The notes beneath the pieces were generated by a model, which saw only the letters and a program-made list of their open reading frames with translations, had not been told where the DNA came from and did not search any database. Positions 1 through 51,762 of a stretch of DNA of 64,000 bases are shown piece by piece (the first letter of the stretch is position 1; the number at the start of each line of letters is the position of its first letter). Source of the stretch: Desulfobacterales bacterium (GTDB lineage: Bacteria; Desulfobacterota; Desulfobacteria; Desulfobacterales; UBA2245); assembly GCA_040771865.1 (NCBI GenBank), contig JAXGZF010000008.1, forward strand, positions 20,722 to 84,721, given 5' to 3'. The position numbers and the translations under genes were made by a program.

Positions 1-1793
1 ACGGAGGTTTTGACGGTCCCCTTGCCCGCTTCTGAATTGATGAAGGTGGTGGATTCGGCTTCGGTGGTGTTCTCGATGTTCGATCCGACCGTGACCGTAC
101 CGCCGGTAGAGGTTATATTCGTGGTGCCCTTCAGTGTGGTAATTGCAGTGGCGTTGGATTCGCTGTAGCTGACGGCAAACGGCGCCGAGCCGGCGGCCTG
201 TGAGCCGATGCTGCCGGCCCCGCCGCCGCTGCGCAGATCCATGCCGCCGGAGGCGCTGGCCACGCTCTCAATTATTGTTTCGGCGTTGATAGTCACGTCA
301 CCGCTGCTGGTGATTGTGGCCCCGTCAAGGGTAACGTAGGATTCGGCGCTGCGGATGCTCACCGAAACGGCCTGGAGCAGCGGGCCGAGCACCGGAATCG
401 CACCGAGAACGGTGCCGAGGATGTCTCCGTAGTCGAGCACCGGGCCCAGTACGTAATTGTTGAAATAGCCCATATCCCCGTCTTCGAGGGGTTTTTGATC
501 CGCCGTGGCGGCCTCGATGGTGACAGACGTCCCGTCGATGGTGGCGCCGGTGATGTTGATGGTGGCGGTCTTGGACTGGACCGCAACCACCGTCAGAGGC
601 GCGGCTAGCATGCTCGTGCGATCGGCCGTGAGGGTGATCTGGCCGCCTCTGATTTCGGCGCCGGTCAAGATGTTGATGCTCACGTCATCCGCCGGGAATA
701 CATCGAGCGGCGAGATGCCGGAATAATCGGTAATTTTCGCCGTGAAGGTGATATCTCCCGTGGTGCTGGTGCCTTCAGTGCTGAGCACGACACCGGGATT
801 GACCGTAATGGACTCCGCTGTGACTTCCAAGGCATGGCCTTCAAAATCGTTCGATTCTCGGAACACAACGGTATCCGACCCGAGGCCGCTGTTGATCGTA
901 AGCGCGAAGGGGGCTGTTGTGCCGAGGTTATCCACGTAAAGGGTGTCGTTACCGGCGCGGAGGTTGATTGTCAGGCTGTTTGTAGGTTTGGCAAAGGAGT
1001 ATTGTTCGAAGCTGGGGATAGATCCTGTATCTGAAATATACAACTGGCCACCCACTTCGGATATAGTCGCTGTGTCGGCTAAAATAGACAGGGTGATTTC
1101 GATATTTTCGGATGTCCCTGAATAAGTGATCGGCTCGAGCCCGGCATAAGTTATGATGTCCCCGTCACGATCGATAATTCCGGAATGGGCATCGAATGCC
1201 TCGTAAGTCAAGCTGCCGTATGTGCCGCCGTCAAGAACCAGACTGTCGAACCCGCCTGCGCCGCCCTCGACGGTTCCGGCCAGGGACCCGTCCTGGGCAA
1301 AGACGAAGGTGTCCTTGTTATCCGCCGCGCCGGTCAGGTTCTCGATGCCGGCAAAGGCCACACTGCCCGTGTCGCCGGCACCGGCCCCGGTGATGTTCCA
1401 GGTCCGGTCTCCGCCGCCGACGAATTCGAGGACGTCGTTGTCCGTTGAGGAGCTATCAATAAAGGAGACAGGTATGGATAAGGGGAGGGTAGAATCCACG
1501 AGGAGGTGGTCGTCGCCGGATGATCCGATAATCTCGATCCCACTGGTATCGGCGGCGGCCTGGCTGGCTACCGCTGTGTCGGTGTCGATATCGATGAGCT
1601 GGAACGTGTCGACTCCGTCGATCTGGTTCAGCTCCAGAGACAGATCCTTTGTTCCATCCATCACGTAGGAAAGGTCGGCCGACAGCAACAACCGCGGCTC
1701 CAGGGGCTCCATCATGGCCTTTCGCTGGGGCTTTCTGGCTGCGGCGGCATCCTTCTTCCGGGCTAATCTGCGTAAATTTCTAGCGATACCCAT
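1..1793 (-). CDS. Giant repetitive LEPR-xLL-leader protein, N-terminal ~597 codons only (gene continues past the left edge of the window)
   Basis: This gene is missing from the ORF track because it has no in-window stop, so I translated it by hand. The ATG (complement of 1791-1793) gives MGIARNLRRLARKKDAAAARKPQRKAMMEPLEPRLLLSADLSYVMDGTKDLSLELNQIDGVDTFQL... and the frame stays open down to nt 1 (...TTFINSEAGKGTVKTS). AGGAGG lies 6 nt upstream of the ATG. The leader is near-identical to those of the two complete giant genes. Confidence 0.85.
   Translation of the reverse strand, partial: MGIARNLRRLARKKDAAAARKPQRKAMMEPLEPRLLLSADLSYVMDGTKDLSLELNQIDGVDTFQLIDIDTDTAVASQAAADTSGIEIIGSSGDDHLLVDSTLPLSIPVSFIDSSSTDNDVLEFVGGGDRTWNITGAGAGDTGSVAFAGIENLTGAADNKDTFVFAQDGSLAGTVEGGAGGFDSLVLDGGTYGSLTYEAFDAHSGIIDRDGDIITYAGLEPITYSGTSENIEITLSILADTATISEVGGQLYISDTGSIPSFEQYSFAKPTNSLTINLRAGNDTLYVDNLGTTAPFALTINSGLGSDTVVFRESNDFEGHALEVTAESITVNPGVVLSTEGTSTTGDITFTAKITDYSGISPLDVFPADDVSINILTGAEIRGGQITLTADRTSMLAAPLTVVAVQSKTATINITGATIDGTSVTIEAATADQKPLEDGDMGYFNNYVLGPVLDYGDILGTVLGAIPVLGPLLQAVSVSIRSAESYVTLDGATITSSGDVTINAETIIESVASASGGMDLRSGGGAGSIGSQAAGSAPFAVSYSESNATAITTLKGTTNITSTGGTVTVGSNIENTTEAESTTFINSEAGKGTVKTS
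1671..1793 (-). other. LEPR-xLL-type N-terminal leader (copy in partial gene)
   Basis: MGIARNLRRLARKKDAAAARKPQRKAMMEPLEPRLLLSADL is rich in basic residues. Its longest hydrophobic run is only about 5 residues. Confidence 0.8.
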
Positions 1794-1797
1794 GACC

Positions 1798-1820
1798 TAC
1801 CTCCTTTGTTCACGAAGGGT
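1798..1820 (-). promoter_or_regulatory. Conserved 5' UTR / Shine-Dalgarno block (paralogous to blocks upstream of the other two giant genes)
   Basis: The minus strand reads ACCCTTCGTGAACAAAGGAGGTA, then 6 nt after the AGGAGG comes the ATG. The blocks upstream of the two complete giant genes read CGCCCTTCATAAACACAGGAGGTG. A perfect TATAAT (complement of 1843-1848) lies ~50 nt upstream of the ATG and may be a -10 box, though that is weak evidence. Confidence 0.6.
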
Positions 1821-2035
1821 ATTACTCCGTTAAGCTGCTGTAATTATAATAAATTATTGTATTTTCATTGAAAATGCGAAAAAAACCGCTTAGCTTTCCA
1901 TATTCTCTTTATACAAATTCGGGTATTGTACCTTGGTACTAATTATATATTTTTTTTTACTATAGAACGCGGCGCGAAATTGATCGGTACCGCCTTTGTC
2001 TGGAAGAGCCCGGGCAGGAATTTTTGAAAAGATGA

Positions 2036-2220
2036 TCAGGAAAATGTCGAACTTGTCGATCGGGTTAAGCTACAATGACAGGTCCTTTTTCCCATCATGC
2101 AGGAGAGAACGGCTGAGAGCATCGGCCTCGCTTCTAAAAGCTCCATTGTTACCTTGCGTCGGGCCTTTCGGGCTAATCCGCGTAAATTTCCAGCGGTACC
2201 TACGGCTTGCCTCCTTTGCT
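2036..2220 (-). pseudogene. Decayed relic of a fourth LEPR-xLL leader / giant-gene 5' end
   Basis: The minus strand reads AAAGGAGGCAAGCC GTA GGT ACC GCT GGA AAT TTA CGC GGA TTA GCC CGA AAG..., translating to (V)GTAGNLRGLARKARRKVTMELLEARPMLSAVLS. This aligns with MGIARNLRRLARK...MMEPLEPRLLLSADL. The ATG has become GTA at 2201-2203, the middle of the leader is shortened, and the frame stops ~25 codons after the LSA motif. An SD-like AAAGGAGG is retained at the expected position. Confidence 0.6.
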
Positions 2221-2492: not shown

Positions 2493-2538
2493 AAAAAAAG
2501 AAGAGGGGACCCGGCTGAGTGTATGCGCCAGATCCCCT
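2493..2538 (-). terminator. Rho-independent terminator after the 9,430-codon gene
   Basis: The minus-strand RNA reads AGGGGAUCUGGC-(11-nt loop)-GCCGGGUCCCCU, a 12-bp stem including G.U pairs. It is followed by CUUCUUUUUUUAAG and starts ~35 nt after the stop codon. Confidence 0.6.
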
Positions 2539-2571: not shown

Positions 2572-5500
2572 CTACACTTCTTCCGCCTCTTCATCCGTGA
2601 ACATGATTTGAATGTTTTCCGTGGGCTCGAACGGATTGCGTTCGCCCTGTGCCCTGGTGATCAGGAATTCCCTCAGCCAGAAATTTTTCTCCATGGCCGT
2701 GGCGGCCGGATCAGGCGCTTCCTCGTCGTCCAGATTCGAGGTGTCCATCACCACCAGGCCGCTGCCGGGCGTCAATCGCTCGCCGGCATCCAGGGCGGCG
2801 CTCATCAGGTCGTCGCTGTCTGCGGGCAGATCCCCGTAGCCCAGCGCATGGCCGATCTCGTGCATCACCACGGTGAGCAGATCCATCCGGTCGGCGTCTT
2901 CGCCGCCCGCAACGGTGAACTCCGTATCGTCAGACGGCGTTCCATCCACATACCAGCCCCATCCGGCCGCATCGTCGTCGATGTAGATCGTATCCGGGGT
3001 GGTCTGGCCGAGGATTCCGCGTCCGCGTCCCTCGAAATCCATGATCTGGAAGTCGATGCCGCCCAGGTCGATCGGTGCGCCCAGGACAGCTTCCCACCGC
3101 GCGATGGCTTCATCCACGATGGGATCCAGCTGCGCCTCCGTCAGCAGCTCAACCTTCGACTGCGGCCCGGTGGCTGTTTCCGCCGCCATCAGCGGGGCGA
3201 GGTCATCGTTGAGAATCGTGACCTCGCCGACTCCATCGGCTATGGTTGCATCACCACCCACAGCGTTGGAAAGCAGGACGTTGAAGGTTTCATCAGGCTC
3301 CCAAACCTTGTCACCGTTGACGATCAGGGTGTAATTCTTTTCTGTCTCGCCGGGTGCAAAGGTGATCGTCGCGTCAGCAACCGCAACATAATCCTCCCCG
3401 CTCACGGCCGTGTCGTCTGCAGTGGCCAGTTTCACGGTCACCGTTTCGGACGAGGCCTGCGAGAGACTGACCGTGACGTTCACCTTGGTCTTGTTGGTCT
3501 TGTTGCCCTCGACGACACTCACATCCGAAATAGAGATCGTCGGCAGGGCAGGGGAGGAGTTATCATCGTCGTTTTCGATGGTGATCGTTCCTGTCCCATC
3601 GGCAATGGCGGCACCCACGGCGTTGGAAAGCAGAACAGTGAAGGCTTCATCGGATTCGAACAGCGTATCGCCGTAAACGGTGAACCACGCTTCTTTGACG
3701 GTTTCACCTTCAGTAAAGATCAGCGTGTCTTCTACGTACTCATAATCCTTGTCCTCGCCGCTATCAGTTGCAGACACGTTCTGCGTCCTGTAATCGACCG
3801 ATACCGTTTCACCGGCAGCGGGAGTCGAGGACAGGGTGAAGGTCAGCTTAACCTCCTTGGATCCGCTGTTGCCTTCCGTCACCAGCGCATCCGAAACCGA
3901 AATCGTCGGCAGGACAACCGGCGGAGGCGCGCTGCCGGCAAAAGCCGGGTCATTGGTACGGACCGTCATCTGGTCGAAGGCGGTTGTCCCGAATGACACC
4001 AGCCCGAATCCGCCGTCCACCAGTGCGGCGTTGAAACCGTAGGTGTCGAGGAATGCGTTGTCGACCAAGATGGAGACCGAGGCGCCGGCGAAAGACAGCT
4101 TCAGGTGGTGTGCCGACCCGTCTTCGAGGGTCTTCGTATAGGTCCGGTCGATTCTCATGCCGCTGTCCGGGGCAACATGGCCGACCTCCACCACGTCACG
4201 TGCCGCATCGATCCGGACAAACTTGAAGTCGTCAAAATCGTAGTAATCGAAGACCAGACCGCCCACACCACCGGGCATCATCGACGCTTCGAGTTCGAGG
4301 ATCGAACTCACCGCGATGCCTGCGCCGAGGTCCGCGAGGCTCACTGCCGGGACTTCTTCCGACCAGCTCCCCGTGAAAAAGCCGCCCTCTGTCAATGCCC
4401 AGTTGCCTGTCTCCTGCTTCAAGACTTGCGCGGCATCCCCCGAGAAATCGTCGATGATCTCGAGGGTGATTTCAGGCGGCAGGACCTGCACCGTGAAGTT
4501 GTCCACCGTACCGCTGCCGCCGTCCATTCCGACGCCGACGAAGCCCTTGTTGAGCGGGATCGGCAGGCCGTCTTCATCCAGCCGCGGATCGAAAGTGTAG
4601 GTGAACCAGGTCACCCCGTCGATGATCAGCGTGACATTGGTGCCGTTAACCGCCACCAGCACGTCATATTGGATGCCCGGCTTGATCCGGACTGGTTGAT
4701 TGGACTTCACGACCTGATGCCAACCGGTTGCATCTCGATAGCCCATCTCGATCTGGTTGGTCGAGACGTTGATCCCGGCGTACTTGAAGTCGATATCCGA
4801 CTGGTAGTCGAAGATGACATAGGCATTCGCCTTGGCGCCGCCGGTAGGCTTGTCCGCCATGAGCAGGGCTCGGACCTCGTAGTAGATCGGCAGGTAGGCA
4901 TCCAGGTTGTAGAAGGCTGTCGCCTGCGTGTCGTAAGAGTCGGCCGCAACATACAATCTGCCGTTGACCGCCTGGAACTTGCCTGTGTCGCGAACGAACA
5001 GGTCCATCGATGCGTTGTTGAAGTCGGACGTTCTCAGTACATCGCGCCGCCCGCCCGGTACGTTGCCGGCCTGCGGGTCTGTCGGGCCGCCGGTCTGGTC
5101 CTGCCAGTAGCCGTGATCCTTCTGGGTTACCAGGCCGATTTCGCCGTAGATCCCGCCCTGCATGGTCGTAACGTTCGAGTAGCGCTGGTTATGGTTCGAC
5201 TGGCCCGTATCGGTGTACCGGGTAATATCTACACCGTCGCCGAATGCCTGGGCGTACAGGAAGTCGAACAGGTGCGGCGGCACCTGCCGGCTGACGGTCG
5301 CAACGCCAAAGGATGCAAACGGTACGATGAAAGAGTTGAATTCGCCGACCCAGTCGATCAGCCGGTCGCCCTTGGTGTTGCCGATCAGGATGTCGAGCCC
5401 CGCGCCGCCGAAGACCCGGTCCTCATAGACCCAATGCGTATCAGGCGTTTCGTCGTAACCGCCCAGCGGGAGCTGTCCGGGATCATTCTGCGGCGGATCG

Positions 5501-8500
5501 GGGTTCACCGTCCCAATCACGTCGTCGGCGTTCATCAGATCGTTGCCGAAGCCGCCGTAAATGTGGTCGCGGCCCGTTCCGCCGACGATCCAGTCGTTGC
5601 CCAGATCGCCAAAAATTGCGTCATCGCCGTCGGTCTGGCGGTATTCCTCCGGGACGTCCGGATCGGGCGTCTGGCCGTCCGGTTTGAATGCAACGTAGCC
5701 CAGCACGCTGACGCCCTCGTTGCTGGTCTGATTGAGGAAGTACTGCTTGAGGACCGGATCTGTGATATCGTCCCCCGTCCAGACCACCGTTTTTCCGTCA
5801 ACCTCATCGAACAGGACAGGCCGGCGCGGGTCGTACTCGTTGTAAAGATAGAACTCGCCAATACGACTCTGGACCGGTTTCGGCCCGTTCCACGGATTGG
5901 TGTCATCACCGAACAGCAGGACGTTGCCAGGGTTGTAAGGATGATCGAAGTCCGTCCGCCAGAGACCGAGCAGATCGCGCTCCTGGCCCTCCTCGTCCAC
6001 TGTGGATCCGTCTATCCGAGGCGCATAGCTTTCCGACAGCGCCTCTCCGCCGGCGATGGCGTCGTCGCCCGATCCGCCGTGCATGAAGTCGTTGCCCAGC
6101 CCGCCGAACAGGATGTCATCGGCGAACATGTGGCTTGACAGCGCCGGATCAGCCGCCCCCAGCTCGGCATCGGTCAGGTTGAACGGCGTCAGATCGACGG
6201 ATTTCTTCAATTCGCCCGAAACATTGATCAGCTCGCTCTGGACGTTGCCCGGCGTATGGATCAGCTCGTCGAGGACGTTGCCCTGGCTGGTCCGGGTGTC
6301 CGGATCCCTGTCGAGCAGCGCCTCGACCCCGTACAGACTCTCAGCCAGCGTTTCATCGGAGGTATTGCGGCTGGTGAAAATCCTGCCGTCGTCGCCCAGG
6401 ATGCCGTCCGTACCGGTACCGCCGGAGATCCAGTCATTGCCCCAGCCGCCGATGATGTCGTCACTATCGGCATCACCAAACAGCCGGTCGTTACCGCCCT
6501 GGCCATAGATAAAGTCATCACCGGTCTCGCCGTGGACTTCATCGTGGCCGCCGATGTCCGTTGTTGCCCAGATGCCGAACATGGCCCGGAAGTCACCACC
6601 AGGATCTGTCTCCGAGAACTCTGTGGGTTCGAAGTCCGGCCCGCCCGGTGTGTAGTCCAGCAGCCGGATGCCGCGCACTACGATCTTCTCACCGCCGTAG
6701 GTGTCGTAGTTGAAGGTGACGTAGTTCTGTTCCGTCGGAGTCGGCTTGACTTCGGGATTTGGGTTCACATCGTCGCCGTTGATGCCGACGATGCGGATGA
6801 TATCCGCGTTGTCGCCCGCGATCGCATCCGAATCGCGGCCGTGCTTGCTGTCGTACGGGGTGCCATCGGTGATCGAAACGATGTCTTCACCGAAGGTCTG
6901 CGGATCACCGTCCGTGTCCGCCTCCGGGTCGAACCCGTTGTTGCGGTCGATCTGCGTCCCGGCGCCGCCGAAGATGTAGTCATGGCCGTCCGGTCGGCTG
7001 TTCGCGTCGGTCAGACTGAAGAAGCTCGAGCTGCCGCCGATCAGGTCGTCCTGGCCGAGGCCGCCGAAGATCGTATCGCAGTCGCCGCCGCCCTCGATGT
7101 AGTCCTCGCCGTCCGAGGCCGCTTCGAAGCTTGCCACCACCTTCAAATCACCGATCGGCACCTCAAGGGTGGCCGCTACGCGTGCCGCACCCACATGTCC
7201 TGTAGCCGCCACTGCACTCTCGATCGAACCGTCGCCCTGGATGATGTCGCAGCCGAGCTGGCCGAAGATCTCGTCATTGCCGGCGCCGCCGGCGATGTAG
7301 TCGTTGCCGAAGCTGCCGACGCCGACAAGAGCCGGTCCGCTGGTAAACATCGGATCACGATCAAAGGTGTGGAGATCGGCATAGTCAATCTCGTACTCGG
7401 CCCACCACTGCGGTCCCGTCGGGTCACGATAGAGCTTCGCAATACCGTCAGTCAACAGGCGGCCGCTGTTGTCTTCATTGATCGGATCGCCGTCATAGGC
7501 CGGGCTTTCGTTCGATTCGGCCGCAAAATCAGTCCGTCCGTAAAGTAACGTGCCGGAGAGGCTTTGGAACCGCAGGTTCTCGATATCGTCGATCAGACTG
7601 TCGTCATAGGCCCCGCCCATGCGGGTCAGGTAGACGTTGTCGCCGAAGATCAGGTCGTCGCCTTCCAGACCGTCGATCATGTCGTTCCCGGCGCCGCCGA
7701 TCAGAATATCGTCGATATCGGTGCCGTAGATCGTGTCGTCACCGCCGTTCTGGAGCTCGCCCGAGTTGATCTCAAGCACCGAGGCAAGGTCGGTCGTCTG
7801 GATCTTCTGCAGCAGGACCGGCGGCAGGTTGGGGTCTTCCACGTACTGCACGATCACGCCGTGGTCGCCGAAGATGATGTTTTCCTGATCCTGCAAACCG
7901 CTGCCGTTGCCGTCAATCACATCCCGGCCCGCCTTCAGGTCGTCCAGCACCGGTGAAGGCGCCGGCTTGAAGGTATTGTCTGTCTTCGGCAGATCCTTGT
8001 CCACGGAAGGTTCGGGACTGTTGTCCTCGGTGGGGATCTGGAGCGCACGGGTCAGAATATTCACGTTCACGCCGCTGTCGCCGTAGATGTGGTCCACGCC
8101 GCGCTGGCCGAGAATCGTGTCGTCGCCCGATCCACCGGCCAGGTGGTCGCCCGCCTGGCTGCCGATGATCAGATCGTCACCCGCACCGCCGTAAGCGGTG
8201 AAGCCAACCGTCGGCACGGCGCCGGCATCCGCCTCCGCAGCAAACAGCGCACTTGCATCGATGATGTCGTTACCGGCGAGCTTGTAAGGATTGGCAAGCG
8301 GGAAGACCCACTCGTCGTCCTCGTTGTCCTCGTCGGGGAGCATTGGGAACGGATCAAAGGGTTTCTCGCCGAACTCGAGGCCCAGCCGGTCGGACGTGTG
8401 CCCGGAGTACCATACACCGTCCTGGCTGGTGTCGCCGTAAACGACAAGCGGGCTGTCCGGTCCTGCCCCGCCGGTAATCACGAAGTGATCGCCGCCGACG

Positions 8501-30864: not shown

Positions 30865-30868
30865 GATA

Positions 30869-30892
30869 CACCTCCTGTGTTTATGAAGGGCG
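30869..30892 (-). promoter_or_regulatory. Conserved 5' UTR / Shine-Dalgarno block
   Basis: The minus strand reads CGCCCTTCATAAACACAGGAGGTG. This 24-mer is identical to the one at 51763-51786 upstream of the 6,768-codon gene. Confidence 0.65.
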
Positions 30893-43400: not shown

Positions 43401-46400
43401 GGTAACCACAAAGTCTCCCGTGATCCCTGTGATGGCAACCCCATTAGAATCACTCTCGAACAGCACGATGTGATGATCCTCGAGATCGATTCCCAGACCT
43501 ATCCGGGCATCCAGATAAGCCCTTGCGCCGAGCCCCGTATCGCCCTGGAGGAAGAGGTTCTCTCCGCCGACCTCGAATACGCCCAGGTCCAGGTTGACCG
43601 GCAGGTTGTCGTCAACATACCCCACTGGCAGCCGCAGGGCGACCTGCAGGAATTTATGCCCGTCGACGTTGACTATCTGGAGTCCAACCGGCGTCGTCGT
43701 TGTATCTGCCAAACCCAGCTTCTGGTAGAATTGTATTACCTCATTGACGACAGTGGCTGGATCGTCAATGGGCAACCCGAAGGCCTGCCGGATTGCCTGA
43801 TCCAGGTCCTGAATGCTCGCCGAGGGATTCTGTTCGATCGCCGTCAGGGCCTGGCGGAAACGGCCCGCGAGATCGAGGTAGCTGTTGATGCTTTCTCCGA
43901 GGAAGGGCAGTTCATCGTCGAGGAAAGGAAGGTCGCCGAACTGTTCAAGGAACTCGGCCCCCTTGCGCAGGGCAGCCAGGACGAGCGAGAAATCCACATC
44001 GCCGAGGAATCCCAGGTCTCCCAATTCGGTCAGATCGGTCAGGTTGGAGCTCGTTACCGTCGCGGTGGGCGCGCCGGGGTCGAAGGATTCCTGGACCGCG
44101 TCGAGCCCGAGTTCGTTTCCTGCCGGTGTTGTAATCGTGAAAGTATCCACCGAGGCGTTGGCCGCTTCGAACCGGATATAGTTGCCGTCTGCAACGGCGA
44201 TAATCCGGCCGGCAAGATTGGAGTAACGGCCGAGAGCAGTGTTGATGTCCGCGATAAGGCCGTCAAGATCGGTATTATCGACCGTATCGGCCGCCCTGAC
44301 CCTCACCGTGACCGGTGTGTCGCTGTTGACGCTGACCTTGAAGGTGGCGTCGCTCGTAAGGATAAAGCCATCAGGTGTATGGTCGGCAACAAGGTAAGGC
44401 GGATCGGCAAACGGATTGCCCAGATCATTCATGATGATCGCAAGCTTTCCATCTCCCGCATCGAGGGGCGAGCTGTCGGCCCATTCGAAAGCAGGCAGGA
44501 CGGCTATGTCGAGGATGAAGTTGCTGTCTGTAGAATAGCTCCACGTTCCGAGGCTGGTTTCCGATGCGGATGCGTCTATCGAAAAACTTGTCAGGTTTTC
44601 GCCACTACCGATAAGACGAAGGTGGCCATGGTAATCCGAGGCCTCGATTTTGATCCCTCCAACTAGACCGGCGGTTTCCAGTGCATCATTTATGTCATCA
44701 ACATAATCTGCCATGGTGGTGTTATCGGCAGTCACGCCAAGGCTATTAATTGTCAGGGTTAAGTGCTCATCTTCATCAACTATCGCTTTAAGCTGAAGCT
44801 TCGTTTCGGATGCATCCTTTTCCGCATAGACCAGAGTGGTCAGATTGACAGTACTTCCGTCAGCGGCTACAGCGCTTGCCAGAGCAGAATTCAAATCTGT
44901 TACGAGGTCATTAATCGGTATGGGTTCTCCAATTAAATCCAAATTGTGTATCCTGATTGTGTACGAGTCAGTGCCAGCAATAGTCAATAGGAAGGAAATC
45001 GTGGAACCGGTTTGCAGTGTAGGTGTTTCCGATGCAGTGAGAGTATCGGTAGCCGATGCCCCATCTTCAAACCCTATGACCGATGGCTCTCCATAGAGAG
45101 GCACGGTGTATCTCCATGTACCGCGATATATGCCCAATGAGGTAGACTCATCTGTCGCCGTGATTTTCAGCTTTGTACCGAAAATTGTAAGCACCTTCTC
45201 AGCTGTCACTGTACTGGTCAGGTCAACGGTCGCCCATGTATCGTCCTTCGCATTCTTTAGGGCGGTATTCAGGTCAGCAACAAGGCCATCAATTGAGGCA
45301 TTCCCGTCTGTAGCTGACTTGGGTACGTTGATCACATAATTCACACCATTGAGCGTAAGAAGCAGTGTAACATCCGTACCTGGTGAAAAATCCGGAGGCG
45401 ATGCAGCAGCAGTGATTGCTCCGGTTCCCTCCTGACCATCTGTAAAGCCTAAGAGAGGGATATCGGAATAAGCATAGACAAAGAAACTTTCATCAGTTGT
45501 CAGATTGAAGCTCTCAACCTTTTCTTCCGTGATATTTATCGGCGCCAGCTCGAATGTGGGCAGATCTACCGCCGTTAGGAGATCGGAAAGCTGTCCCGGA
45601 ACATCATCTCCGTCAGCATCGCCGAGGGCCAGGAACATATCCCGCAGGAAGACACCTTCATTGTCGGCAAGCTTTATGTCAAAGTCAGCGCTATACAAAG
45701 CTTCGTTGCCTGATTGGGTAAGCATCACCTCAACAAAACCAAAGTTGCCCGTAACGGCAATATCATTGGACACAGGGGTATCCAAAGGATTTCCCACCCA
45801 AACGGATGCCGAAAGGAACGGGCGGTCTGCCTCAAGCGGTGCGAGGAAGAAGCGGTCACCCAGCTTCTCCGGGCTGAGACGGCTGCCCTCAATGAGGCCG
45901 TCGGCGGTCTTCCCTTCGGAGAGGTCGACCGTCGTCATGTCGGAACCGAAAATGCCCAGCGCCAGGGCGGCCGAAGACCGGTTTACCGTGGCTACGTTGA
46001 ACATCTCGGTGTTGGATGGATCAAACCCGTTGTCGACCAGATTGATGCCGATTTTCTTGTAGTTAAGATCGGCGAAAACAGGGTCACCACCCAAACCATT
46101 GATGGCGTCGAGAACACCCTGAATGTCGGTTGCTCCGTCGAGCGTAACGGCATGGTACTTGCCATCCGAGGTGCGGATAAGCAGGTCGGCCATGTTGGCA
46201 TTAAAGGTTGACGTTTCTAGACCGGTGAGGTCTGTGGTCACATCCCATAGCTTGAGGTCCGTCACCGACGGGTCGTTCACATCGGCAATGACGCTGAAGG
46301 CAACCAGGGTCGTATCGATCTGGTCGAGTACAAGGCGGGCACCGTCCTTATCGAATTTCACCATTCCTGTTAGATCAGCAGTAACCGCAGTCGGGTTACC

Positions 46401-49400
46401 ACCACTGTCCAGAACCACCGCAGTCTTGAGCGCGGCGTTGAGGTCTTGGACCAGACTGTACATGGTCCGGTTGTCCAGGGCGCCCGCCATGCTGAGGGAT
46501 ACCTGATAGGTCGTTTCCGATGAGCCGTCATTGATCGATACTTTGAAGGTCGCGTCAGCGGCAGGACCGTAGTAGAAGGGAACGTTTGTGCTTGAGGTCA
46601 CTGCCAGGACCGCTTCGGCAGTTGTCCCATCGACCAGCCCGAGGTCTGTCTCGGCCGGGTCGTCGTCCGGGACGTCAATGGTGAATGTTTTCACCGAATC
46701 ATCGATCGCCCGGAACTGGAGTTTGCTTCCATTGAGCTCGGCAAGGATTTTGTCGTTTATTCCGGCTGTTGTCAACGCGGCATTGATCACATCGACCAGG
46801 TCGCTCAGCGACTGGTTGTCCACCGTGTCAGCTTCCGTTACGGTAACGAGTGTGCCCGTGTCATCGTCATTGAAAGTGATCGTGAAGTGCGCGTCACCAG
46901 TTAGCTGTCCATAGATAGCTGTGGCGCTGATCTCGCCGTCGGGAGAGTGTCCGATGTTCTGCGCACCCAAAAGCCACACGCCTGCTACCTGCCCGTTGGT
47001 GAAGCCGAGGTCGCTCGCGTCAGTAACTTTGAATACCTCTACGGAGGCATCAATCGCCGCCAGAATGATCTGCTGGCCATACCGTCCGGCAACGATCTTG
47101 CCATATAGGTCGGTCAGAGCAATAGCCTGGTTAATATCCAGTACCAGGTCGGTAAGGGTCGCGTTGCCTGCGGTGTTCCTTACCTCTACTAAGGTTTCGG
47201 TTGCGCTCCCGTTCACGTAAATCTTGAAATCCAAGTCCCCGGGGGTGACATCGCTGACCGCTGTCCCGGTCATCTCAACCGTGTAGGCGGTGTTTGGCCG
47301 GATCCCGAGCTCCGTAAATGCCGTATTGTTCGTGGCGGACGAAACCGAGAACCCATCGACACCGTCGGCTGCATTAAGCTGGATGCGGCCGTTGACGAGG
47401 GTGGCCGTCAAGTATTGAGACAGGTCGATTGTCCTGTCATTGGAATCAGTTGTACCTTCCGCAAAGCCGAAGGGATTATCAGCTGCCGCGGTGATCGAGA
47501 ATTTCAGGACGGAATTGTCGGCCGCCATCAACCTGATGACGTCCATTTCACTCACCGTGATCGCCTCGGCAATGATGTTCACTCCCGATGCTGAGAGGGC
47601 GGCATTGATATCAGCGACAAAATCGGCCAGAGTCTCGTTCCCTGCTGTGGCTCCGACCGTGACCGTCACCGTTACCGGGATCGCACTGCCGTTAATCGCA
47701 ACATCGAACGAGGCACCTGTCGATAATTCAAATGAGCTGATCTCGCTCCCAACAACAGAAGGAGCCGATGCCGTGGCATTCAGTGCATGTGCCAGGGCGT
47801 TGTTCAGGTCGAGGATAAGGTCGTCAGCATCAAGGTTGTCGTCCGTCCCCGTAAGATCTCCGGTATCATCAGGATCGGATTTGTAAACGGTCACAGTTGC
47901 CTGAACGGGGCTTCCACTCTCCGGGATAATAACCACGTCGAAGATCGCGTCCGCCGTCAATCGACCGTACACTTTGAGGACATCCTCCGCGCCGGTAAGG
48001 GCCAGGGTGTCTTTTATGGTGATGTCGAGGTAATCGAGAGTCGTATCGTAATCGATATTCCCCACATTCGCGCCCATGACAAAACCCATCGTGGCATCGA
48101 AATAGCCGGTGGCGTAAAGTGCAACCTGGGATTCGCTGTAAAGGCTGGAGAGCGGGTCGAGATCGATCCCCAGGTCGATCGGAGCAATAACCGTAGTAAA
48201 GGTGTGCTCGAGACTGAGGTCGTAAGTCAGGTGCTTTGTGGCTGGATCATACCGGACCGGCTTGGTTCCGGTGAGGAGGTTGAGTTCGGCCATCAGGTAA
48301 GCAAGGTCCTGGGCGGTGATGTACCGGACCGTCAGGTTCTCCTCCGAATCGTAGCCAAGGATTTTCGCGATGTCATCTATATGGGGCGTTTCCGTTGTTT
48401 CCGATGGTTTCTGCAGCCCGTCATCTCCGTCGTTGATCAGCAGTTCGTCGTCGATGATGTCCCCAAAATCGAGGAGGTCGCCCAAGACCGCCCGGGCGAA
48501 GGGGATGTCGGTGTTGTTCAGGAGCGCCGTTTCGGGAAGCCGGTCAAGCCAGGCCCGGAGCTGGATGATAAGGGACGCCACATCCTGCGCGGTGATCACG
48601 TTGAAGTCCAGGAGATCGTCGAAAGCCACGTCTGATGACTGGTCTTCAACAAAGCCGATTTCCTCGGCCCCTGCAGATATCTCGATTTTTTTCTCTGTTG
48701 CGTCGCCCAAGGTCTTCAGCATGATGAATTGCGCACCGCCGACTGGAGAATATACGAAGGCCTGAATAAGGCCATCAAGGTCTGTGCCGGCTATGGCATC
48801 GTTAATGTCGTCCGCCAGGTCCTCAGGGAGCGCGTTGTCAGTGGTATCTGCCGCAAGAACGGTAACCGCGGTACCATCATCAATGCTGATATCGAAGGTC
48901 GCATCAGCAGTCAGCTGCCCGTCGCCCGGAGCAGCGTCTCCGGCAATAATGAAGGTCGCCGTTTCACGAAGGCTCTCGACAAGAGGCGTGTTGAATTCGT
49001 CGGTGATGAGGAATGACAGCTTGTCATAGCCTTCCACATTGACCAGGGTCGTTGCCCCTTCCACAAAGGGATTGAAGTCCGCCTTCAGGACGGCCGAAGG
49101 CTCGTAATAGACCCAGTTGTCGGGGTCTGAATCCGAAGACACATCCCAGATCTCTCCTTCACCCGCATCCGCTCCGGTCTTTGCCTTGACGCCAAGGTTC
49201 ATGTAGAACCGGGAGTCGGGATCGGCCGCCGGATCGGGGAACAGGTCTTCGCTGTCGACCGCTTCGAGCTCGGCACCGGTGATCCGGTTGTCCGCGTCGA
49301 GGGTCAGCTTGCGTGTCACCTCCAATGTCTCCGGAGGATCTCCGGCGGTCCCGAAATGGGTCAGCGTTAACCTGCCGCCCACAACAGTGCCGGCTGCCAC

Positions 49401-51758
49401 ATGGGTGCCACCGATGTCAGCCAGCACCCGGTTGATATCTGCAGCCAGATCTTCAGCGGAAGTGTTCCCTTTTGTTACCTTAGGGATAACGACATCGAAG
49501 GATTCAATATCATCCGCCGCATCCGCTTTGACTTTCAGCGTGATCCGGACACCTTCAGCCACGGCCTCTAACGATCCGCCGATTCCGGCATCGCTCAGGG
49601 CATCATTGATGGCGGATACGAAACCGGCCGATTCTGTACCAGCTGGCACAGTAATCGTAAATGTCTCTTCGGCACCAAACGTCGGAACGACTACTATGTC
49701 GATGGTGGCATCAACGGTCAGAGCCACCGTCGAAGCATCGGTATCGGTCGTAACGGAGAGCGTGATCATCTGACCATTAACGAACCCCGTTTCCGCAGCA
49801 TCCCCGTCAAGGTCCGATATGGCAATGGAGTTGATCGTCGTGTCGGTAGCCGCGAGTTCGATCCGTGTACCATCCGAACTCAGCTGGGCGACAACGTGAC
49901 TGGACCAGTATTCGCTGAATCCATATGGCCAGCTCACGGCTGCCATGGCGTCATTGATATCCTGAACCAGATCGGAAAGAGAGGTATTGTCGCTCCATCC
50001 GGGAGCTGTCTGGGGTAATGTGACTGTAGCGGTATACTCAGAAGTTCCTATCGTTACAATAATGTCGAAGGACTTGTCGCCGGGCGTTGAAAACTGGCCG
50101 GTTGTCGGTCCGGTATTTTCGGCCGCAAGCGGAAGAAGCTCCGCTTGTTCAGAAGGCGCGAACCCCAATTCTTCTATGGCAGTGTCGGTGGCAGGAAGGG
50201 TGATCACATACGGGAGCTGGCCGTTCACGGAAAGCAGGAATGAAATGTCCGAGGCAAATTCGTAACCCGCGGGAACTGCTGAAGCGGTGAGGACAACCTC
50301 GCCATCGTTGTCGCCATCCGAGGCGTATGCCTCGCCCGTTCCATCATTGTTGAAACCAAGCAGATCGGACTGCGACGGCACGGACAGCGTGATCTTGCCG
50401 GCGCCATCGTCGGCTACGGTGATGATATCAGCGAGCGCAGGGCTGGCGTCCTCGATGGCATAACGAATGTCATCAAGGAGATCTTCCAGGGATGTGTTCG
50501 CATCCCCACCACCGCTCCCTGTGTCGGCATTGGAGCCATTCGTGTTTTCGGCCTGCAGAACGATTTCCACCGGCGCGATCTGATCGTTGTTTCCGATCTC
50601 GAGAGTGAAGATGACGTCGTATTTCAATGTAAAGTTGTCGGGTTCCGTCAGATCCTCAATGGAGAAATCCGCTACAATCGTTCCTGGATCGGTGTTGCCG
50701 GAGGCGTTGGGCAGGGTGTCAAACCCGAGGGCGTCCGGGTCGCTCGGATCGTGGACCGAGGTTTCGATGAGCATGTCAATGGAGAAGTCGTCGTTGGCCG
50801 TTTCATAGGCTGCCCATGTTTCGAGGAAGCCCACGTTCATGGTGAATTGGCTCAGCGTGTCCTGATATGTGTCGACCGCGATCGAGAGTTTTCCTACCTC
50901 AGGGACCTCAATGTAGAACTCGCTGTCCACATTGTCGAATCCGAGGATGAAGTCCAGGGCAACGGTAGATCCCACCCAGGTGTACACAGTCGGCAAATCC
51001 TGAATCATCAGATCGCTGGCCTGTTCTCCCAAGTTAATAGGGTATTTATGCCAAAATGTGAGAGCGAAACTGACATCGAAGGAGGCGCCATCTTCCAAGA
51101 CCGAGGATGTAAAACCGTCGCCGTCGATGTCGATGTTGTCCACGGCAATATTTATCCCCTCGTACACCTCCAGATTTCCGACGGTGCTGCTGAACAAGGC
51201 CGAGCCATCAAGATTATTATTAAGGAAGGTCGCGAAATCGGTCTGGAAGGTGGGTAGATTTAAGGGATCATCGAGATCATCTGGGTTAGCTGGTGTGTAT
51301 TCGTCCAGGAAAGCGCTGATCTCGTCGGTAACGTAGGCATTGAAGAACTCCTCGAAGTCCACCTTGCCGTCTTTGGCAAATTGTAAAGGAGAGACAGAGA
51401 CCAGCTCATACTGATCCAGCCCATTGAGCGTGGCCTCGCCTGTATCTGTTCGGTCTCCGTCTCGGTTGAGGTCGGTCTCTATGGCGAGGAGGTCCTGAAC
51501 GGTGGGAGACTCGTTGTACCGCAAAACGCCGGGGACATAAGTGTCAAGAAGAGGCTCCTGATCGACGAAGTCCTGCACGACGGCTCCGAGGGCATCAAGA
51601 CCATCGGGCATCGCAACCCCAATGCCGGGGAGCAGGTCGTCGGCACTCAACAACAGCCGCGGCTCCATGGGTTCCATCATTGCTTTTCGTTGGGGTTTTT
51701 TAGCGGCGGCGGCGTCCTGCTTCCGGGCTAATCTGCGTAAATTTCTGGCGATACCCAT
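31452..51758 (-). CDS. Giant (6,768 aa) LEPR-xLL-leader repetitive protein with DLVxDINxAL modules, RTX repeats, LamG, Calx-beta and a metzincin-like C-terminus
   Basis: A single uninterrupted ORF with an ATG start (51756-51758) and AGGAGG 6 nt upstream. The leader and the C-terminal cassette are paralogous to those of the 9,430-codon gene. Confidence 0.95.
   Translation of the reverse strand: [6768 protein letters not shown]
31455..32070 (-). other. C-terminal metzincin-like domain ([11 protein letters not shown]) plus conserved acidic tail
   Basis: The domain reads ...[39 protein letters not shown]..., with the motif at 31713-31745. The tail is [44 protein letters not shown]. Confidence 0.7.
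32075..32750 (-). other. Two tandem Calx-beta domains
   Basis: The first domain (32425-32750) reads [22 protein letters not shown]...[61 protein letters not shown]. The second (32075-32410) reads [26 protein letters not shown]...[62 protein letters not shown]. Confidence 0.85.
32775..33790 (-). other. Two tandem LamG/concanavalin-A-like jelly-roll domains
   Basis: The two domains contain [41 protein letters not shown]...[14 protein letters not shown]...[20 protein letters not shown] and [30 protein letters not shown]...[14 protein letters not shown]...[20 protein letters not shown]. Confidence 0.7.
34100..40620 (-). repeat. RTX-type calcium-binding repeat region, including a ~115-120-aa super-repeat (about 36530-38790)
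   Basis: Repeat stretches include [194 protein letters not shown] and [20 protein letters not shown]. Confidence 0.85.
44050..50640 (-). repeat. At least 15 copies of a ~90-190-aa module with a central [ST]-L-x-D-L-V-x-D-I-N-x-A-L helix-like motif
   Basis: The motif instances, in order, are [178 protein letters not shown] and [13 protein letters not shown]. Each is flanked by (T)ADATF.V.I.. and ...I.L.A.D.SV..F.I strand-like segments. Confidence 0.75.
51636..51758 (-). other. LEPR-xLL-type N-terminal leader
   Basis: [41 protein letters not shown]. Confidence 0.8.
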
Positions 51759-51762
51759 AACC

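What the first reader, a model, noticed from the sequence alone, without database searches (positions are those of the whole stretch)
1..51758. Tandem array of three giant paralogous genes (9,430, 6,768 and more than 597 codons) sharing a leader and a C-terminal cassette
Seen in sequence: three co-oriented ORFs fill 50.4 kb of the 64 kb. Each has the same ~41-aa N-terminal leader and the same 5' UTR block. The two complete genes end in the same cassette: RTX, 2 LamG, 2 Calx-beta, a metzincin-like domain and a conserved tail. Their middles are built from different repeat families, so the array looks like a family of interchangeable-payload giant exoproteins. At 9,430 aa, the larger protein is among the biggest bacterial polypeptides. 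Established knowledge: RTX and Calx-beta domains are extracellular Ca-binding folds typical of adhesins. Inference: these proteins could be matrix, sheath or cell-cell adhesion fibres, and no partner genes for export are visible in the window.
Basis: partly seen in the sequence, partly recalled or inferred. Interest (0 to 1): 0.85.

Follow-up and report, generated by a model that had tools for sequence, protein, structure and literature searches.

The report
Array of giant secreted fibre proteins
Three neighbouring genes of a sulfate-reducer-type bacterium (Desulfobacteraceae relative) encode enormous calcium-binding surface or extracellular proteins with the same start and the same end; in related bacteria such genes sit next to an unusual, poorly understood export machine, which these proteins may use.

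Summary
Three co-oriented minus-strand ORFs of 9,430 aa, 6,768 aa and at least 597 aa fill 50.4 kb. They share a 41-aa LEPR-XLL leader and a roughly 100-nt upstream block. The two complete genes share a ~1,900-aa C-terminal cassette. RTX and two Calx-beta domains are solid, and the metzincin-like domain is supported by sequence profile and by fold. The two "LamG" domains stay below threshold. No high-identity DNA repeats exist, and a related Desulfobacteraceae MAG carries collinear orthologues, so these are not assembly artefacts. New here: the last ~60 aa (WLxxFL...NPFEPxxxIxI) mark large proteins encoded directly upstream of a conserved cluster in relatives. That cluster is DUF3467, GAF-HlyD, PqqD/M50-HlyD, a truncated SecA-like ATPase, HlyD and TolC-like. 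The module was described in 2015 with its substrates unknown. It is not in the window and probably lies past the left edge; this is inference. Leader and tail relics, and paralogue tails more alike than orthologue tails, indicate recombination-driven turnover. Verdict: real and ordinary in kind (giant LEPR-XLL/RTX exoproteins), but a useful lead to the cargo of an orphan secretion module.

The parts
2572..30864 (-). Gene A, 9,430 aa giant LEPR-XLL protein (ATG at 30864, stop codon at 2572-2574)
   Evidence: AGGAGG 8 nt upstream of the ATG
31452..51758 (-). Gene B, 6,768 aa giant LEPR-XLL protein
   Evidence: The collinear orthologue X (5,880 aa) in MAG UBA2245 is 60% identical over 2,678 aa
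3..1793 (-). Gene C, first 597 codons; continues beyond the left edge of the window
   Evidence: The orthologue Y in UBA2245 is 76% identical and at least 3,965 aa
30742..30864 (-). Leader of A (aa 1-41): basic N-terminus followed by MEPLEPRILLSAD (LEPR-XLL)
   Evidence: NF012209, 34 bits against a cutoff of 17; no Sec-type hydrophobic core
51636..51758 (-). Leader of B (aa 1-41)
   Evidence: NF012209, 23.6 bits
1671..1793 (-). Leader of C (aa 1-41)
   Evidence: NF012209, 28.8 bits; weak PF07595 Planc_extracel hit
30865..30965 (-). Conserved 5' block upstream of A (ribosome-binding site plus an AT-rich, promoter-like stretch)
   Evidence: alignments. The promoter scan found no site here. No Rfam match at gathering threshold
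51759..51860 (-). Conserved 5' block upstream of B
1794..1895 (-). Conserved 5' block upstream of C; contains weak sigma-70-like hexamers at 1880..1846
2055..2203 (-). Degenerate, frameshifted relic of a leader plus the first codons of a C-like gene, in the A-C spacer
   Evidence: tblastn and ORF list. The same relic is in UBA2245 at L001 10001-10119
23665..29739 (-). A aa 376-2400: ~600-aa super-repeats. Ala/Gly/Thr-rich, beta-solenoid-like stretches alternate with ~67-aa small beta-barrel-like modules
   Evidence: Weak End_beta_barrel and phage endosialidase similarity
20065..23664 (-). A aa 2401-3600: second repeat family (about 80-100-aa units, beta-helix-like sequence pattern)
   Evidence: no Pfam hit
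8365..20064 (-). A aa 3601-7500: weakly repetitive region with no Pfam hit even at E<=1
5455..8364 (-). A aa 7501-8470: RTX nonapeptide blocks (start of the shared cassette)
   Evidence: HemolysinCabind E=4.7e-35, 6 stretches; GGxGxD counts
3895..5007 (-). A aa 8620-8990: two candidate concanavalin/LamG-like beta-sandwich domains (sub-threshold)
   Evidence: Laminin_G_2 E=0.0023 and Laminin_G_1 E=0.0051; CBM66 E=0.055
3202..3882 (-). A aa 8995-9221: two Calx-beta domains
   Evidence: PF03160, 98 bits, 2 stretches
2755..3201 (-). A aa 9222-9370: matrixin-like metzincin domain, with HEIGHALGYGD and a conserved Met (candidate Met-turn)
2575..2754 (-). A aa 9371-9430: acidic C-terminal tail with the motifs WLREFL...NPFEPTENIQIMF; candidate secretion signal
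34059..40511 (-). B aa 3750-5900: RTX-rich region
32754..33791 (-). B aa 5990-6335: LamG-like pair (sub-threshold)
32073..32744 (-). B aa 6339-6562: two Calx-beta domains
   Evidence: PF03160, 126 bits
31455..32072 (-). B aa 6563-6768: matrixin-like domain plus tail. 82% aa identity and 86-92% DNA identity to the same part of A
40659..51635 (-). B aa 42-3700: acidic, Leu/Phe-rich payload with no Pfam hit, unrelated to the payloads of A and C

Best explanation
**Shown**
- The three ORFs are real genes. Each carries its own copy of a conserved upstream block, which suggests separate transcription.
- The organism is a relative of a Desulfobacteraceae MAG (Desulfobacterota).
- The products are giant, highly acidic, nearly cysteine-free proteins of the LEPR-XLL class.
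- Each has three parts:
  1. a basic 41-aa leader ending in EPLEPRxLLSAD;
  2. a gene-specific fibrous payload of diverged repeats;
  3. in A and B, a shared cassette. The cassette holds RTX Ca-binding blocks, two probable beta-sandwich domains, two Calx-beta domains, a small matrixin-like metalloprotease domain (HExxHxxGxxD plus a candidate Met-turn) and a ~60-aa acidic tail.

**Inferred**
- The proteins are exported unfolded, fold with Ca2+ outside the cell, and form surface or extracellular fibres.
- Export most likely uses the 'secondary SecA_DEAD' tripartite module, not a classical ABC type I system. That module consists of a GAF-HlyD adaptor, a PqqD/M50-like intramembrane protease fused to HlyD, a truncated SecA-like ATPase, a second HlyD adaptor and a TolC-like channel, with small DUF3467 proteins encoded alongside.
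- In relatives this module lies immediately downstream of the last giant gene. Here it is expected past gene C, beyond the left edge of the window.
- The conserved tail is the best candidate for the export signal.
- The leader may be bound by the PqqD-like domain and cut by the M50-like protease of the module. This step is speculative.
- The conserved ends also act as substrates for recombination, which swaps, duplicates and deletes payload genes.
For: **The genes are real**
- The open frames are 9,430 and 6,768 codons long.
- TRF at score >=100 found no tandem DNA repeats, and the longest direct repeats are at most 92% identical.
- MAG UBA2245 has collinear orthologues in the same synteny after the CysM-CysS gene.

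**Class membership**: NF012209 passes its cutoff in all three proteins.

**Extracellular character**
- RTX and Calx-beta domains are present.
- A has 1,402 D+E against 453 K+R and only 5 Cys in 9,430 aa. There is no Sec-type hydrophobic region.

**Metalloprotease domain**
- H114, E115 and G121 are invariant, and H118 and M133 nearly invariant, in 25 homologues.
- A profile search of the PDB finds stromelysin-3 at E=1.1e-5.
- The AF2 core has pLDDT above 80, and the top Foldseek hits are all MMP catalytic domains with probability 1.0.

**Link to the export module**
- Tail homologues P0004 and P0073 are followed by DUF3467 and GAF-HlyD genes. In L005 the rest of the module follows as well; in L009 the contig ends in the GAF-HlyD gene.
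- P0005 and P0001 are followed by a DUF3467 gene, as far as their contigs reach. P0001 is the closest relative found, 83% identical to the tail of A.
- Going the other way, two long contigs were picked only by their GAF-HlyD gene. They carry giant genes of 12,231 and 10,665 aa directly upstream. Those genes end in the same cassette, 41-47% identical over about 1,000-2,500 aa.
- The scan returned 80 metagenome loci. Wherever a locus extends far enough downstream, the four core genes lie together.
- Nineteen loci have a GAF-HlyD at least 56% identical to the reference and at least 2.5 kb of upstream DNA. About 16 of them carry a large same-strand ORF ending in W[LIV]xxF[LV]...[DN]PNxxIx[ILV]. 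In most of these, tblastn with the last 210 aa of A finds no match.
- LEPR-leader ORFs also flank the module in L024/L025 and L026, and in two distant-subgroup loci, L065 and L070.
- Wherever the tail is matched, it ends at the extreme C-terminus.
- The module has no ABC transporter. Its SecA-like protein lacks the C-terminal scaffold and wing part. PMC4452313 says the same.

**Recombination**
- The last 210 aa of A and B are 82% identical, against 60% for B and its orthologue X.
- Relics of leaders and tails lie in the spacers.
Against: - None of the module genes is in the window or in the 42 kb held from the related MAG. Its presence in this genome is therefore extrapolated.
- Conserved adjacency within one order could partly reflect shared ancestry rather than function.
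- Loci of the distant GAF-HlyD subgroup (49% identity or less) mostly lack a tail-bearing ORF upstream.
- Two tail-homologue loci, L006 and L007, show no module within 10 kb.
- No experiment links the module to any cargo (PMC4452313).
- RTX repeats are the classic mark of ABC-type T1SS substrates.
- The DUF3467 fold could not be modelled (pLDDT 48).
- The promoter scan of the conserved 5' block is inconclusive.
- The third zinc ligand is Asp rather than His, so protease activity is not assured.
- Fibre or adhesin function is inferred from composition only.
Confidence: 0.55

Rival explanations
1. These are classical type I secretion (ABC-HlyD-TolC) RTX adhesins of the LapA/SiiE/MpIBP kind. The C-terminal tail is an ordinary T1SS signal, the leader region is a retention element, and the T1SS operon lies elsewhere in the genome.
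For: - RTX blocks are strong.
- The C-terminal tail is acidic and unstructured, with a predicted amphipathic helix.
- The proteins are giant, repetitive, acidic and Cys-poor.
- No export genes are in the window, so a system acting in trans is needed in any case.
Against: - In the relatives whose downstream DNA could be read, the adjacent apparatus never includes an ABC transporter.
- The tail is conserved in sequence across distant proteins. Classical T1SS signals are poorly conserved (established knowledge).
- In A the RTX blocks lie about 1,000-1,900 aa from the C-terminus, not next to it.
- No match to a LapA-type retention domain was seen. The only LapA hit is E=0.64.
Confidence: 0.2
2. 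The LEPR-XLL leader is itself an unusual N-terminal export signal, as proposed for the Planctomycete motif RRLxxExLExRxLLA. It would send the protein across the inner membrane through the general Sec route or an unknown route. The neighbouring SecA-like module in relatives would serve something else, for example a peptide product.
For: - The leader is conserved and passes NF012209.
- It gives a weak PF07595 hit.
- PMC8567305 cites Studholme 2004 for the motif as a putative novel N-terminal export signal, and reports 20 of 52 motif proteins of T. immobilis in its proteomic data, 8 of them only in the SDS-soluble fraction.
- The module contains a PqqD-like domain and an M50 protease related to RiPP leader peptidases (NF041824, 2e-40). 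In L008 and L011 a radical SAM gene and a methyltransferase gene lie next to the DUF3467 genes.
Against: - The leader has no hydrophobic core (maximum 10-residue Kyte-Doolittle score 1.3-1.7), so it is not a Sec or Tat signal peptide.
- The small DUF3467 proteins do not look like RiPP precursors, since they lack a Cys/Ser/Thr-rich core.
- The link between the tail and the module holds across different upstream domains.
Confidence: 0.15
3. The ORFs are assembly artefacts or decaying pseudogenes and make no functional protein.
For: The sequence is repeat-rich and probably metagenome-derived. Several homologues in public data are fragmented by frameshifts (for example L005). Relic leaders and tails show that family members do decay.
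Against: - The frames are uninterrupted over 28.3 and 20.3 kb.
- TRF at score >=100 found no tandem DNA repeats, and the best direct repeat is 92% identical over 300 nt.
- Collinear orthologues with intact frames exist in an independent assembly.
- Intact ribosome-binding sites and conserved 5' blocks are present.
Confidence: 0.03

Closest known systems
LEPR-XLL domain-containing proteins (NCBIfam NF012209 'LEPR-8K') and the Pfam PF07595 'Planctomycete extracellular' motif (Studholme et al. 2004, as cited in PMC8567305)
   Same: An N-terminal basic stretch followed by LEPRxLL at the start of very large repetitive proteins predicted to be extracellular. All three genes pass the NF012209 cutoff.
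   Different: The family is defined only by the motif. The export route and the fate of the leader are unknown. Here the host is a Desulfobacteraceae relative, not a planctomycete, and PF07595 itself is below threshold (17 < 25.5).
Giant RTX adhesins secreted by type I systems (LapA, SiiE, MpIBP, FrhA)
   Same: Giant, acidic, repetitive proteins with RTX Ca-binding blocks towards the C-terminus, a C-terminal element likely needed for export, and a predicted fibre or adhesin role.
   Different: No ABC transporter accompanies the relatives. The tail is conserved in sequence. There is an N-terminal LEPR-XLL leader instead of a LapG-cleaved retention module. A matrixin-like domain lies between the Calx-beta domains and the tail.
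Secondary SecA_DEAD / type-I-like module (Kamneva, Poudel & Ward 2015, PLoS One, PMC4452313)
   Same: The cluster found next to the relatives' giant genes has the same composition: GAF-HlyD, Peptidase_M50-like-HlyD, a SecA_DEAD protein lacking the C-terminal domains, HlyD and an OEP, with no ABC transporter.
   Different: That paper reports the module's role as 'completely unknown' and names no cargo. Its text does not mention DUF3467. Here giant LEPR-XLL proteins bearing the tail, together with DUF3467 genes, are its recurrent neighbours. The module is not in this window.
Omnitrophota and Actinobacteriota giant proteins with built-in divergent SecA domains (West-Roberts et al. 2023, bioRxiv 10.1101/2023.11.21.568195)
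   Same: Giant proteins are associated with a SecA DEAD plus preprotein-binding unit that lacks the scaffold and wing domain, proposed to help export the giant protein itself.
   Different: [quoted passage not shown] Here A and B have no Pfam SecA hit, and the SecA-like protein is a separate ~660-aa gene in a HlyD/TolC cluster.
Matrixins and bacterial MMP-like metzincins (karilysin, M10) and snapalysin (M7)
   Same: HExxHxxG, a conserved Met downstream and an MMP-like predicted fold. The third ligand is Asp, as in snapalysin's HExxHxxGxxD.
   Different: The domain is about 150 aa, shorter than MMP catalytic domains. It is below the Pfam M10 threshold, is embedded at the C-terminus of giant proteins, and its activity is untested. 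The module family is large: 11,362 representative proteins match at E<=1e-3.

Membership tests
LEPR-XLL domain-containing protein (NF012209) | N-terminal LEPRxLL motif scoring above the curated cutoff (17 bits) | tested here: met
   34, 23.6 and 28.8 bits for A, B and C, at residues 28-48
LEPR-XLL domain-containing protein (NF012209) | Motif sits at the extreme N-terminus of a very large repetitive protein | tested here: met
   9,430 aa, 6,768 aa and at least 597 aa (orthologue at least 3,965 aa)
Classical T1SS RTX substrate or adhesin | RTX nonapeptide repeats (PF00353) | tested here: met
   E=4.7e-35 (A) and 1.1e-31 (B), several blocks
Classical T1SS RTX substrate or adhesin | Cognate ABC transporter, MFP and TolC encoded nearby | tested here: not met
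   None in the window or in the related MAG's flanks. Relatives have MFPs and a TolC-like protein but a SecA-like ATPase instead of an ABC transporter
Classical T1SS RTX substrate or adhesin | Uncleaved secretion signal in the last ~60 aa that is required for export | not testable with these tools
   A conserved acidic tail exists. Whether it is required needs an experiment
Classical T1SS RTX substrate or adhesin | LapA-type N-terminal retention module with a LapG site | tested here: not met
   No Pfam hit in the N-terminal regions. The LapA domain scores only E=0.64, and that hit is in the C-terminal cassette of B
Cargo of the secondary SecA_DEAD/HlyD/M50 module (PMC4452313) | Encoded adjacent to the module | tested here: inconclusive
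   Not in the window. True for homologues in L005, L009, L011 and L012 and for about 16 of 19 close metagenome loci. The region downstream of gene C is unavailable
Cargo of the secondary SecA_DEAD/HlyD/M50 module (PMC4452313) | Carries the C-terminal W[LIV]xxF[LV]...[DN]P(N/F)xxxIx[ILV] tail shared by module-adjacent large proteins | tested here: met
   A: FWLREFL...NPFEPTENIQIMF. B: FWLREFL...NPFEPTEKFQIVI
Cargo of the secondary SecA_DEAD/HlyD/M50 module (PMC4452313) | Export depends on the module | not testable with these tools
   Requires genetics or biochemistry
Metzincin / matrixin (Peptidase_M10) | HExxHxxGxxH zinc motif | tested here: inconclusive
   HEIGHALGYGD: the third ligand is Asp (snapalysin-like). 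Homologues vary between H and D
Metzincin / matrixin (Peptidase_M10) | Met-turn downstream of the motif | tested here: met
   A nearly invariant Met (M133, 'DLMS') aligns to the 'ALMS' of stromelysin-3
Metzincin / matrixin (Peptidase_M10) | Pfam gathering score | tested here: not met
   21.4 bits against a cutoff of 24. Many homologues do carry a precomputed PF00413 hit
Metzincin / matrixin (Peptidase_M10) | MMP catalytic fold | tested here: met
   AF2 core pLDDT 80-94. The top 40 or more Foldseek PDB hits are MMPs or karilysin; the best have probability 1.0 and target-normalised TM about 0.5
Calx-beta (PF03160) | Pfam gathering score | tested here: met
   98 and 126 bits against a cutoff of 27, two stretches each
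Laminin G / concanavalin-like lectin | Pfam gathering score for any LamG model | tested here: not met
   18.8 < 22.9 and 17.5 < 24. A profile of five sequences finds only CBM66 at E=0.055
Two-partner secretion (TpsA/FhaB) or autotransporter | N-terminal TPS domain or C-terminal beta-barrel translocator | tested here: not met
   No such Pfam hits anywhere in A, B or C
Omnitrophota-type giant proteins | SecA_DEAD domain and many TM helices inside the giant protein | tested here: not met
   No SecA Pfam hit. The most hydrophobic 19-aa windows are Gly/Ala-rich repeat sequence

The most novel reading that the evidence does not exclude
Giant LEPR-XLL proteins such as A, B and C would be the long-sought cargo of the 'secondary SecA_DEAD' module. 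That would make it a distinct secretion route across both membranes, built as follows:
- a truncated SecA-like ATPase takes the place of the ABC transporter as the motor;
- a PqqD/M50-HlyD fusion recognises the conserved N-terminal leader and perhaps removes it;
- the conserved WLxxFL...NPFEP tail is the targeting signal;
- DUF3467 proteins act as dedicated chaperones.

If so, the Planctomycete 'extracellular' motif and this module would be two halves of one system, spread over Planctomycetes, Verrucomicrobia, Proteobacteria and Desulfobacterota.
Probability: 0.35. Interest if true: 0.85.

Novelty: new variant of a known kind. Interest (0 to 1): 0.6.

Why it matters
- Giant LEPR-XLL proteins are common in public data, yet how they leave the cell is not described in the literature searched here. 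The tail and protease profile alone finds 11,362 representative proteins.
- A conserved SecA-like/HlyD/M50/TolC module has been known since 2015 without any known cargo or role.
- The comparative evidence gathered here puts the two side by side and points to a short, conserved C-terminal tail as the likely signal. This turns both open questions into a simple genetic test.
- For the organism, two proteins of 6,768 and 9,430 aa and a third of at least 597 aa (its orthologue is at least 3,965 aa) are a large investment. They are likely to shape its surface, aggregation or partner contacts.
- The array also shows how conserved ends allow payload genes to be swapped, duplicated and lost.

Tried and rejected
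1. **Collapsed repeats or assembly artefact: rejected.** TRF at score >=100 finds no tandem DNA repeats, and the best direct repeat is 92% identical over 300 nt.
2. **Riboswitch or known RNA in the conserved 5' block: no support.** There is no Rfam match at gathering threshold. Promoter and terminator scans are not above shuffled expectation.
3. **Extending the contig leftwards: failed.**
   - The genome scan found only a related MAG (76% identity). Its held stretch ends inside the gene C orthologue.
4. **Finding the module gene of UBA2245 by the length of its contig: failed.** It was not among the 120 rows listed.
5. **DUF3467 as a SecB-like chaperone: untested.** The AF2 model was too poor to search with (pLDDT 48). 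A profile search found no PDB relative.
6. **LamG domains: not confirmed** by Pfam or by a PDB profile search.
7. **Pfam hits to Cpn10 and DnaJ_C in gene A: treated as spurious.** They match a 'GDxV..Y' beta-hairpin of the ~67-aa module.
8. **TPS, autotransporter or built-in SecA architecture: rejected.** No such hits were found.
9. **Small DUF3467 proteins as RiPP precursors: considered unlikely.** They are conserved, folded-looking ~110-aa proteins without a modifiable core.


Full report
**1.

The window contains three co-oriented minus-strand reading frames:

| Gene | Coordinates | Length |
|---|---|---|
| A | 2572..30864 | 9,430 aa |
| B | 31452..51758 | 6,768 aa |
| C | 3..1793 | 597 aa, open at the left edge |

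- Together they occupy 50.4 kb.
- Each starts with ATG, 8 nt after an AGGAGG ribosome-binding site.
- About 100 nt upstream of each start are conserved among the three genes. The same block precedes the two orthologues found in another genome. The first ~32 coding nucleotides are almost invariant.
- No Rfam family matches at gathering threshold. The promoter and terminator scans are not informative.
- The first 40 residues are 80-92% identical. They pass the curated cutoff of NCBIfam NF012209, the LEPR-XLL domain, in all three proteins.
- A 7520-9429 aligns with B 4883-6767 at 43% identity over 2,045 columns. Identity rises to about 80-85% in the last ~330 residues.

**2. These are not assembly artefacts**

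- Tandem Repeats Finder at score >=100 reports nothing.
- The longest direct DNA repeats are the A and B tails. They are 78-92% identical over a few hundred bases, too diverged to collapse in assembly.
- An independent assembly, Desulfobacteraceae bacterium UBA2245 (contig DDYB01000013.1), has the same neighbourhood. It starts with a CysM-CysS gene and two conserved genes.
  - Next comes a 5,880-aa gene X, collinear with B and 60% identical over 2,678 aa.
  - After a 2.4-kb spacer comes gene Y, 76% identical to C and open for at least 3,965 aa.
- This also places the window in a Desulfobacteraceae-related organism.

**3. Anatomy**

Shared cassette:
- Pfam and NCBIfam recognise only the cassette. 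It holds several RTX blocks, two Calx-beta domains and a weak Peptidase_M10 signal (21.4 bits against 24).
A five-sequence profile of that region finds nothing better than a CBM66 beta-sandwich at E=0.055. They are best called probable concanavalin-like beta-sandwich domains, not confirmed LamG.

Payloads:
- The rest has no family hit even at E<=1: A 1-7,500, B 1-3,700 and C.
- Self-comparison shows that A is built from diverged repeats. These are ~600-aa super-repeats (aa 376-2,400) and an 80-100-aa unit (aa 2,400-3,600).
- A also contains a ~67-aa module, 'HGxxTGDxVxY...GGLxxGxxYYVI...IxLAxSxxDAxAGTAIDL'. It occurs at least 8 times in A and about 14 times in Y, but not in B.
- This module weakly resembles the small beta-barrel domain of phage endosialidases.
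- The payload of B is a different, acidic, Leu/Phe-rich sequence.

Composition and leader:
- A has 1,402 Asp+Glu, 453 Lys+Arg and 5 Cys.
- The leaders have 9-10 Lys/Arg in the first 27 residues and no hydrophobic core, so they are not Sec or Tat signal peptides.

**4. The C-terminal module**

- A search with the last 209 aa of A found 61 homologues. In an alignment of 23 of them with A and B, several features are conserved:
  - 'DAAGWGWFVDxTPxDDxEF';
  - 'MDLLTVVMHExGHxLG';
  - a Met about 15 residues further on;
  - a terminal 'SWLxxFL...NPFEPxxxIxI'.
- A profile of this alignment finds stromelysin-3 (E=1.1e-5) and karilysin in the PDB. The match runs from the zinc helix to the Met-turn.
- An AlphaFold model has a confident core (pLDDT 80-94 for residues 20-140). 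The top Foldseek hits are all MMP catalytic domains.
- In A and B the third zinc ligand is Asp (HEIGHALGYGD), as in snapalysin. Relatives vary between His and Asp.
- The profile finds 11,362 representative proteins at E<=1e-3, so the module is widespread. Several are full-length giants, for example 5,996, 5,473 and 5,842 aa. They begin with a LEPR-type leader and carry the module at the extreme C-terminus.

**5. The missing export partner**

*Module next to tail homologues*
- The window itself has only housekeeping genes on the right: Ogt, a LarA-like isomerase, CysM-CysS, a YhaM-like gene, SurE, a B12-radical SAM gene and FadD.
- Contigs carrying tail homologues tell more. In L005 and L009 the tail-bearing gene is followed by one or two small DUF3467 genes and then a GAF-HlyD adaptor.
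- L009 ends inside that adaptor gene. L005 continues with four more genes:
  - a ~715-aa fusion of a PqqD-like domain, an M50-like intramembrane metalloprotease and an HlyD part (the closest curated model is the daptide leader protease, 2e-40);
  - a ~660-aa SecA-like ATPase that lacks the C-terminal scaffold and wing part;
  - a short HlyD adaptor;
  - a TolC-like protein.
- L008, and L013 as far as they extend, show a DUF3467 gene after the tail. L013 carries the closest tail found, 83% identical to the tail of A.

*Reverse test and metagenome scan*
- I picked two long contigs solely by their GAF-HlyD gene. Both have a giant gene directly upstream, of 12,231 and 10,665 aa. Both genes end in the same cassette as A and B, 41-47% identical over about 1,000-2,500 aa.
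- A metagenome scan with the GAF-HlyD protein returned 80 loci. The four core genes lie together wherever a locus extends far enough downstream.
- Nineteen loci have an adaptor at least 56% identical to the reference and at least 2.5 kb of upstream DNA.
  - About 16 of them have a large same-strand ORF, often running off the locus and up to at least 3,164 aa.
  - That ORF ends in W[LIV]xxF[LV]...[DN]PNxxIx[ILV].
  - In most of them tblastn with the last 210 aa of A finds no match.
- LEPR-leader ORFs also flank the module in L024/L025 and L026, and in two loci of the distant subgroup, L065 and L070.
- The short tail is therefore the feature common to module-adjacent large proteins. That makes it the best candidate for the export signal.

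**6. What is already known**

- The module was described by Kamneva, Poudel and Ward in 2015 (PMC4452313). They reported GAF-HlyD, Peptidase_M50-like-HlyD, a secondary SecA_DEAD protein, HlyD and sometimes an OEP. They found no ABC transporter. [quoted passage not shown]
  - They proposed the SecA-like protein as the ATPase and the M50 protein as a possible membrane pore.
  - They stated that the biological role is completely unknown and named no cargo.
- The LEPR motif corresponds to the 'Planctomycete extracellular' motif. Studholme et al. [quoted passage not shown]
- West-Roberts et al. 2023 reported truncated SecA domains inside Omnitrophota giant proteins and suggested self-export.
- I found no paper in the held library that links LEPR-XLL giants, DUF3467 and the SecA_DEAD module.

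**7. Array dynamics**

- The A-C spacer holds a degenerate, frameshifted copy of the leader and first codons of a C-like gene (window 2203..2055). The same relic lies upstream of Y in UBA2245.
- Where the window has gene A, UBA2245 has only two tail relics (L001 8219-8317 and 9496-9625) and a DUF2299 ORF.
- The last 210 aa of A and B are 82% identical. B and its orthologue X are only 60% identical there.
- The conserved ends therefore evolve in concert and appear to serve as recombination handles for gain and loss of payload genes.

**8. Mechanism, with status**

- Shown:
  - the gene structure, the domains, the composition and the absence of a Sec-type signal;
  - a matrixin-like fold, the conserved tail, and its adjacency to the module in relatives.
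- Inferred:
  - secretion in an unfolded state and Ca-dependent folding outside the cell;
  - use of the SecA-like/HlyD/M50/TolC module, probably encoded past gene C;
  - the tail as the signal.
- Speculative:
  - recognition of the leader by the PqqD-like domain and its cleavage by the M50-like protease;
  - DUF3467 as a chaperone;
  - the matrixin-like domain trimming the tail or releasing the protein;
  - a role in adhesion or aggregation.

**9. Verdict**

- The finding is real. In kind it is a new variant of a known class, the giant LEPR-XLL/RTX exoproteins.
- Size alone is not exceptional, because larger relatives exist.
- Its value is as an entry point. The shared tail connects this class to an orphan secretion module and makes the cargo question testable.
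- Interest is 0.6. It is held down because the module is not in the window and no experiment exists.

Noticed in passing
window 55847..58738 (-): One open frame holds a complete cysteine synthase (CysM/CysK, residues 213-501) followed 7 residues later by a complete cysteinyl-tRNA ligase (509-961). The related MAG has an 813-aa ORF at the syntenic position (L004 957..3398); its domains were not scanned. This looks like a CysM-CysS fusion protein.
   Followed up: partly
window 53113..54402 (-) and 54865..55824 (-): The two genes between CysM-CysS and the giant array are conserved in synteny with UBA2245. The 429-aa one is a nickel-pincer-cofactor (LarA-like) isomerase, group 22 (460 bits against a cutoff of 400). 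The 319-aa one has no family hit.
   Followed up: partly
L001 8622-9134 (+) (UBA2245 spacer); also L017, L027 and L047 upstream of the module: A ~170-aa DUF2299 protein (E=3.5e-21) lies in the UBA2245 spacer, between the giant genes and next to the tail relics. ORFs with a similar C-terminal sequence recur between the giant gene and the DUF3467 gene in several metagenome loci. It may be another accessory protein of the system.
   Followed up: partly
L008 and L011 (also L013, L026, L027, L043, L047): A long form of DUF3467 (530-703 aa) has an N-terminal DUF3467 domain and duplicated unknown C-terminal domains. It often lies directly after the giant gene. In L008 and L011 it is followed by a radical SAM gene and a methyltransferase gene (NUDIX-fused in L011), and then the short DUF3467 gene; in L011 the export module follows. 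This hints at a modification step.
   Followed up: partly
window 30833..30864, 51727..51758 and 1762..1793 (-): The first ~32 coding nucleotides (ATGGGTATCGCCAGAAATTTACGCAGATTAGC) are nearly identical in all three genes and in both UBA2245 orthologues, including synonymous sites. This suggests a constraint at the RNA or DNA level (translation initiation, regulation or gene conversion) beyond the protein sequence.
   Followed up: partly
L002 and L003 (Actinomycetes and Gaiellaceae MAGs): The N-terminal beta-helix-like part of gene C (residues 67-396) has 37-39% identical relatives in actinobacterial MAGs. Payload segments are therefore shared across phyla.
   Followed up: no
window 61154..62680 (-): A B12-binding radical SAM protein (508 aa) whose best, sub-threshold match is to PhpK-type P-methyltransferases. 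Its role is unknown and it is probably unrelated to the array.
   Followed up: no
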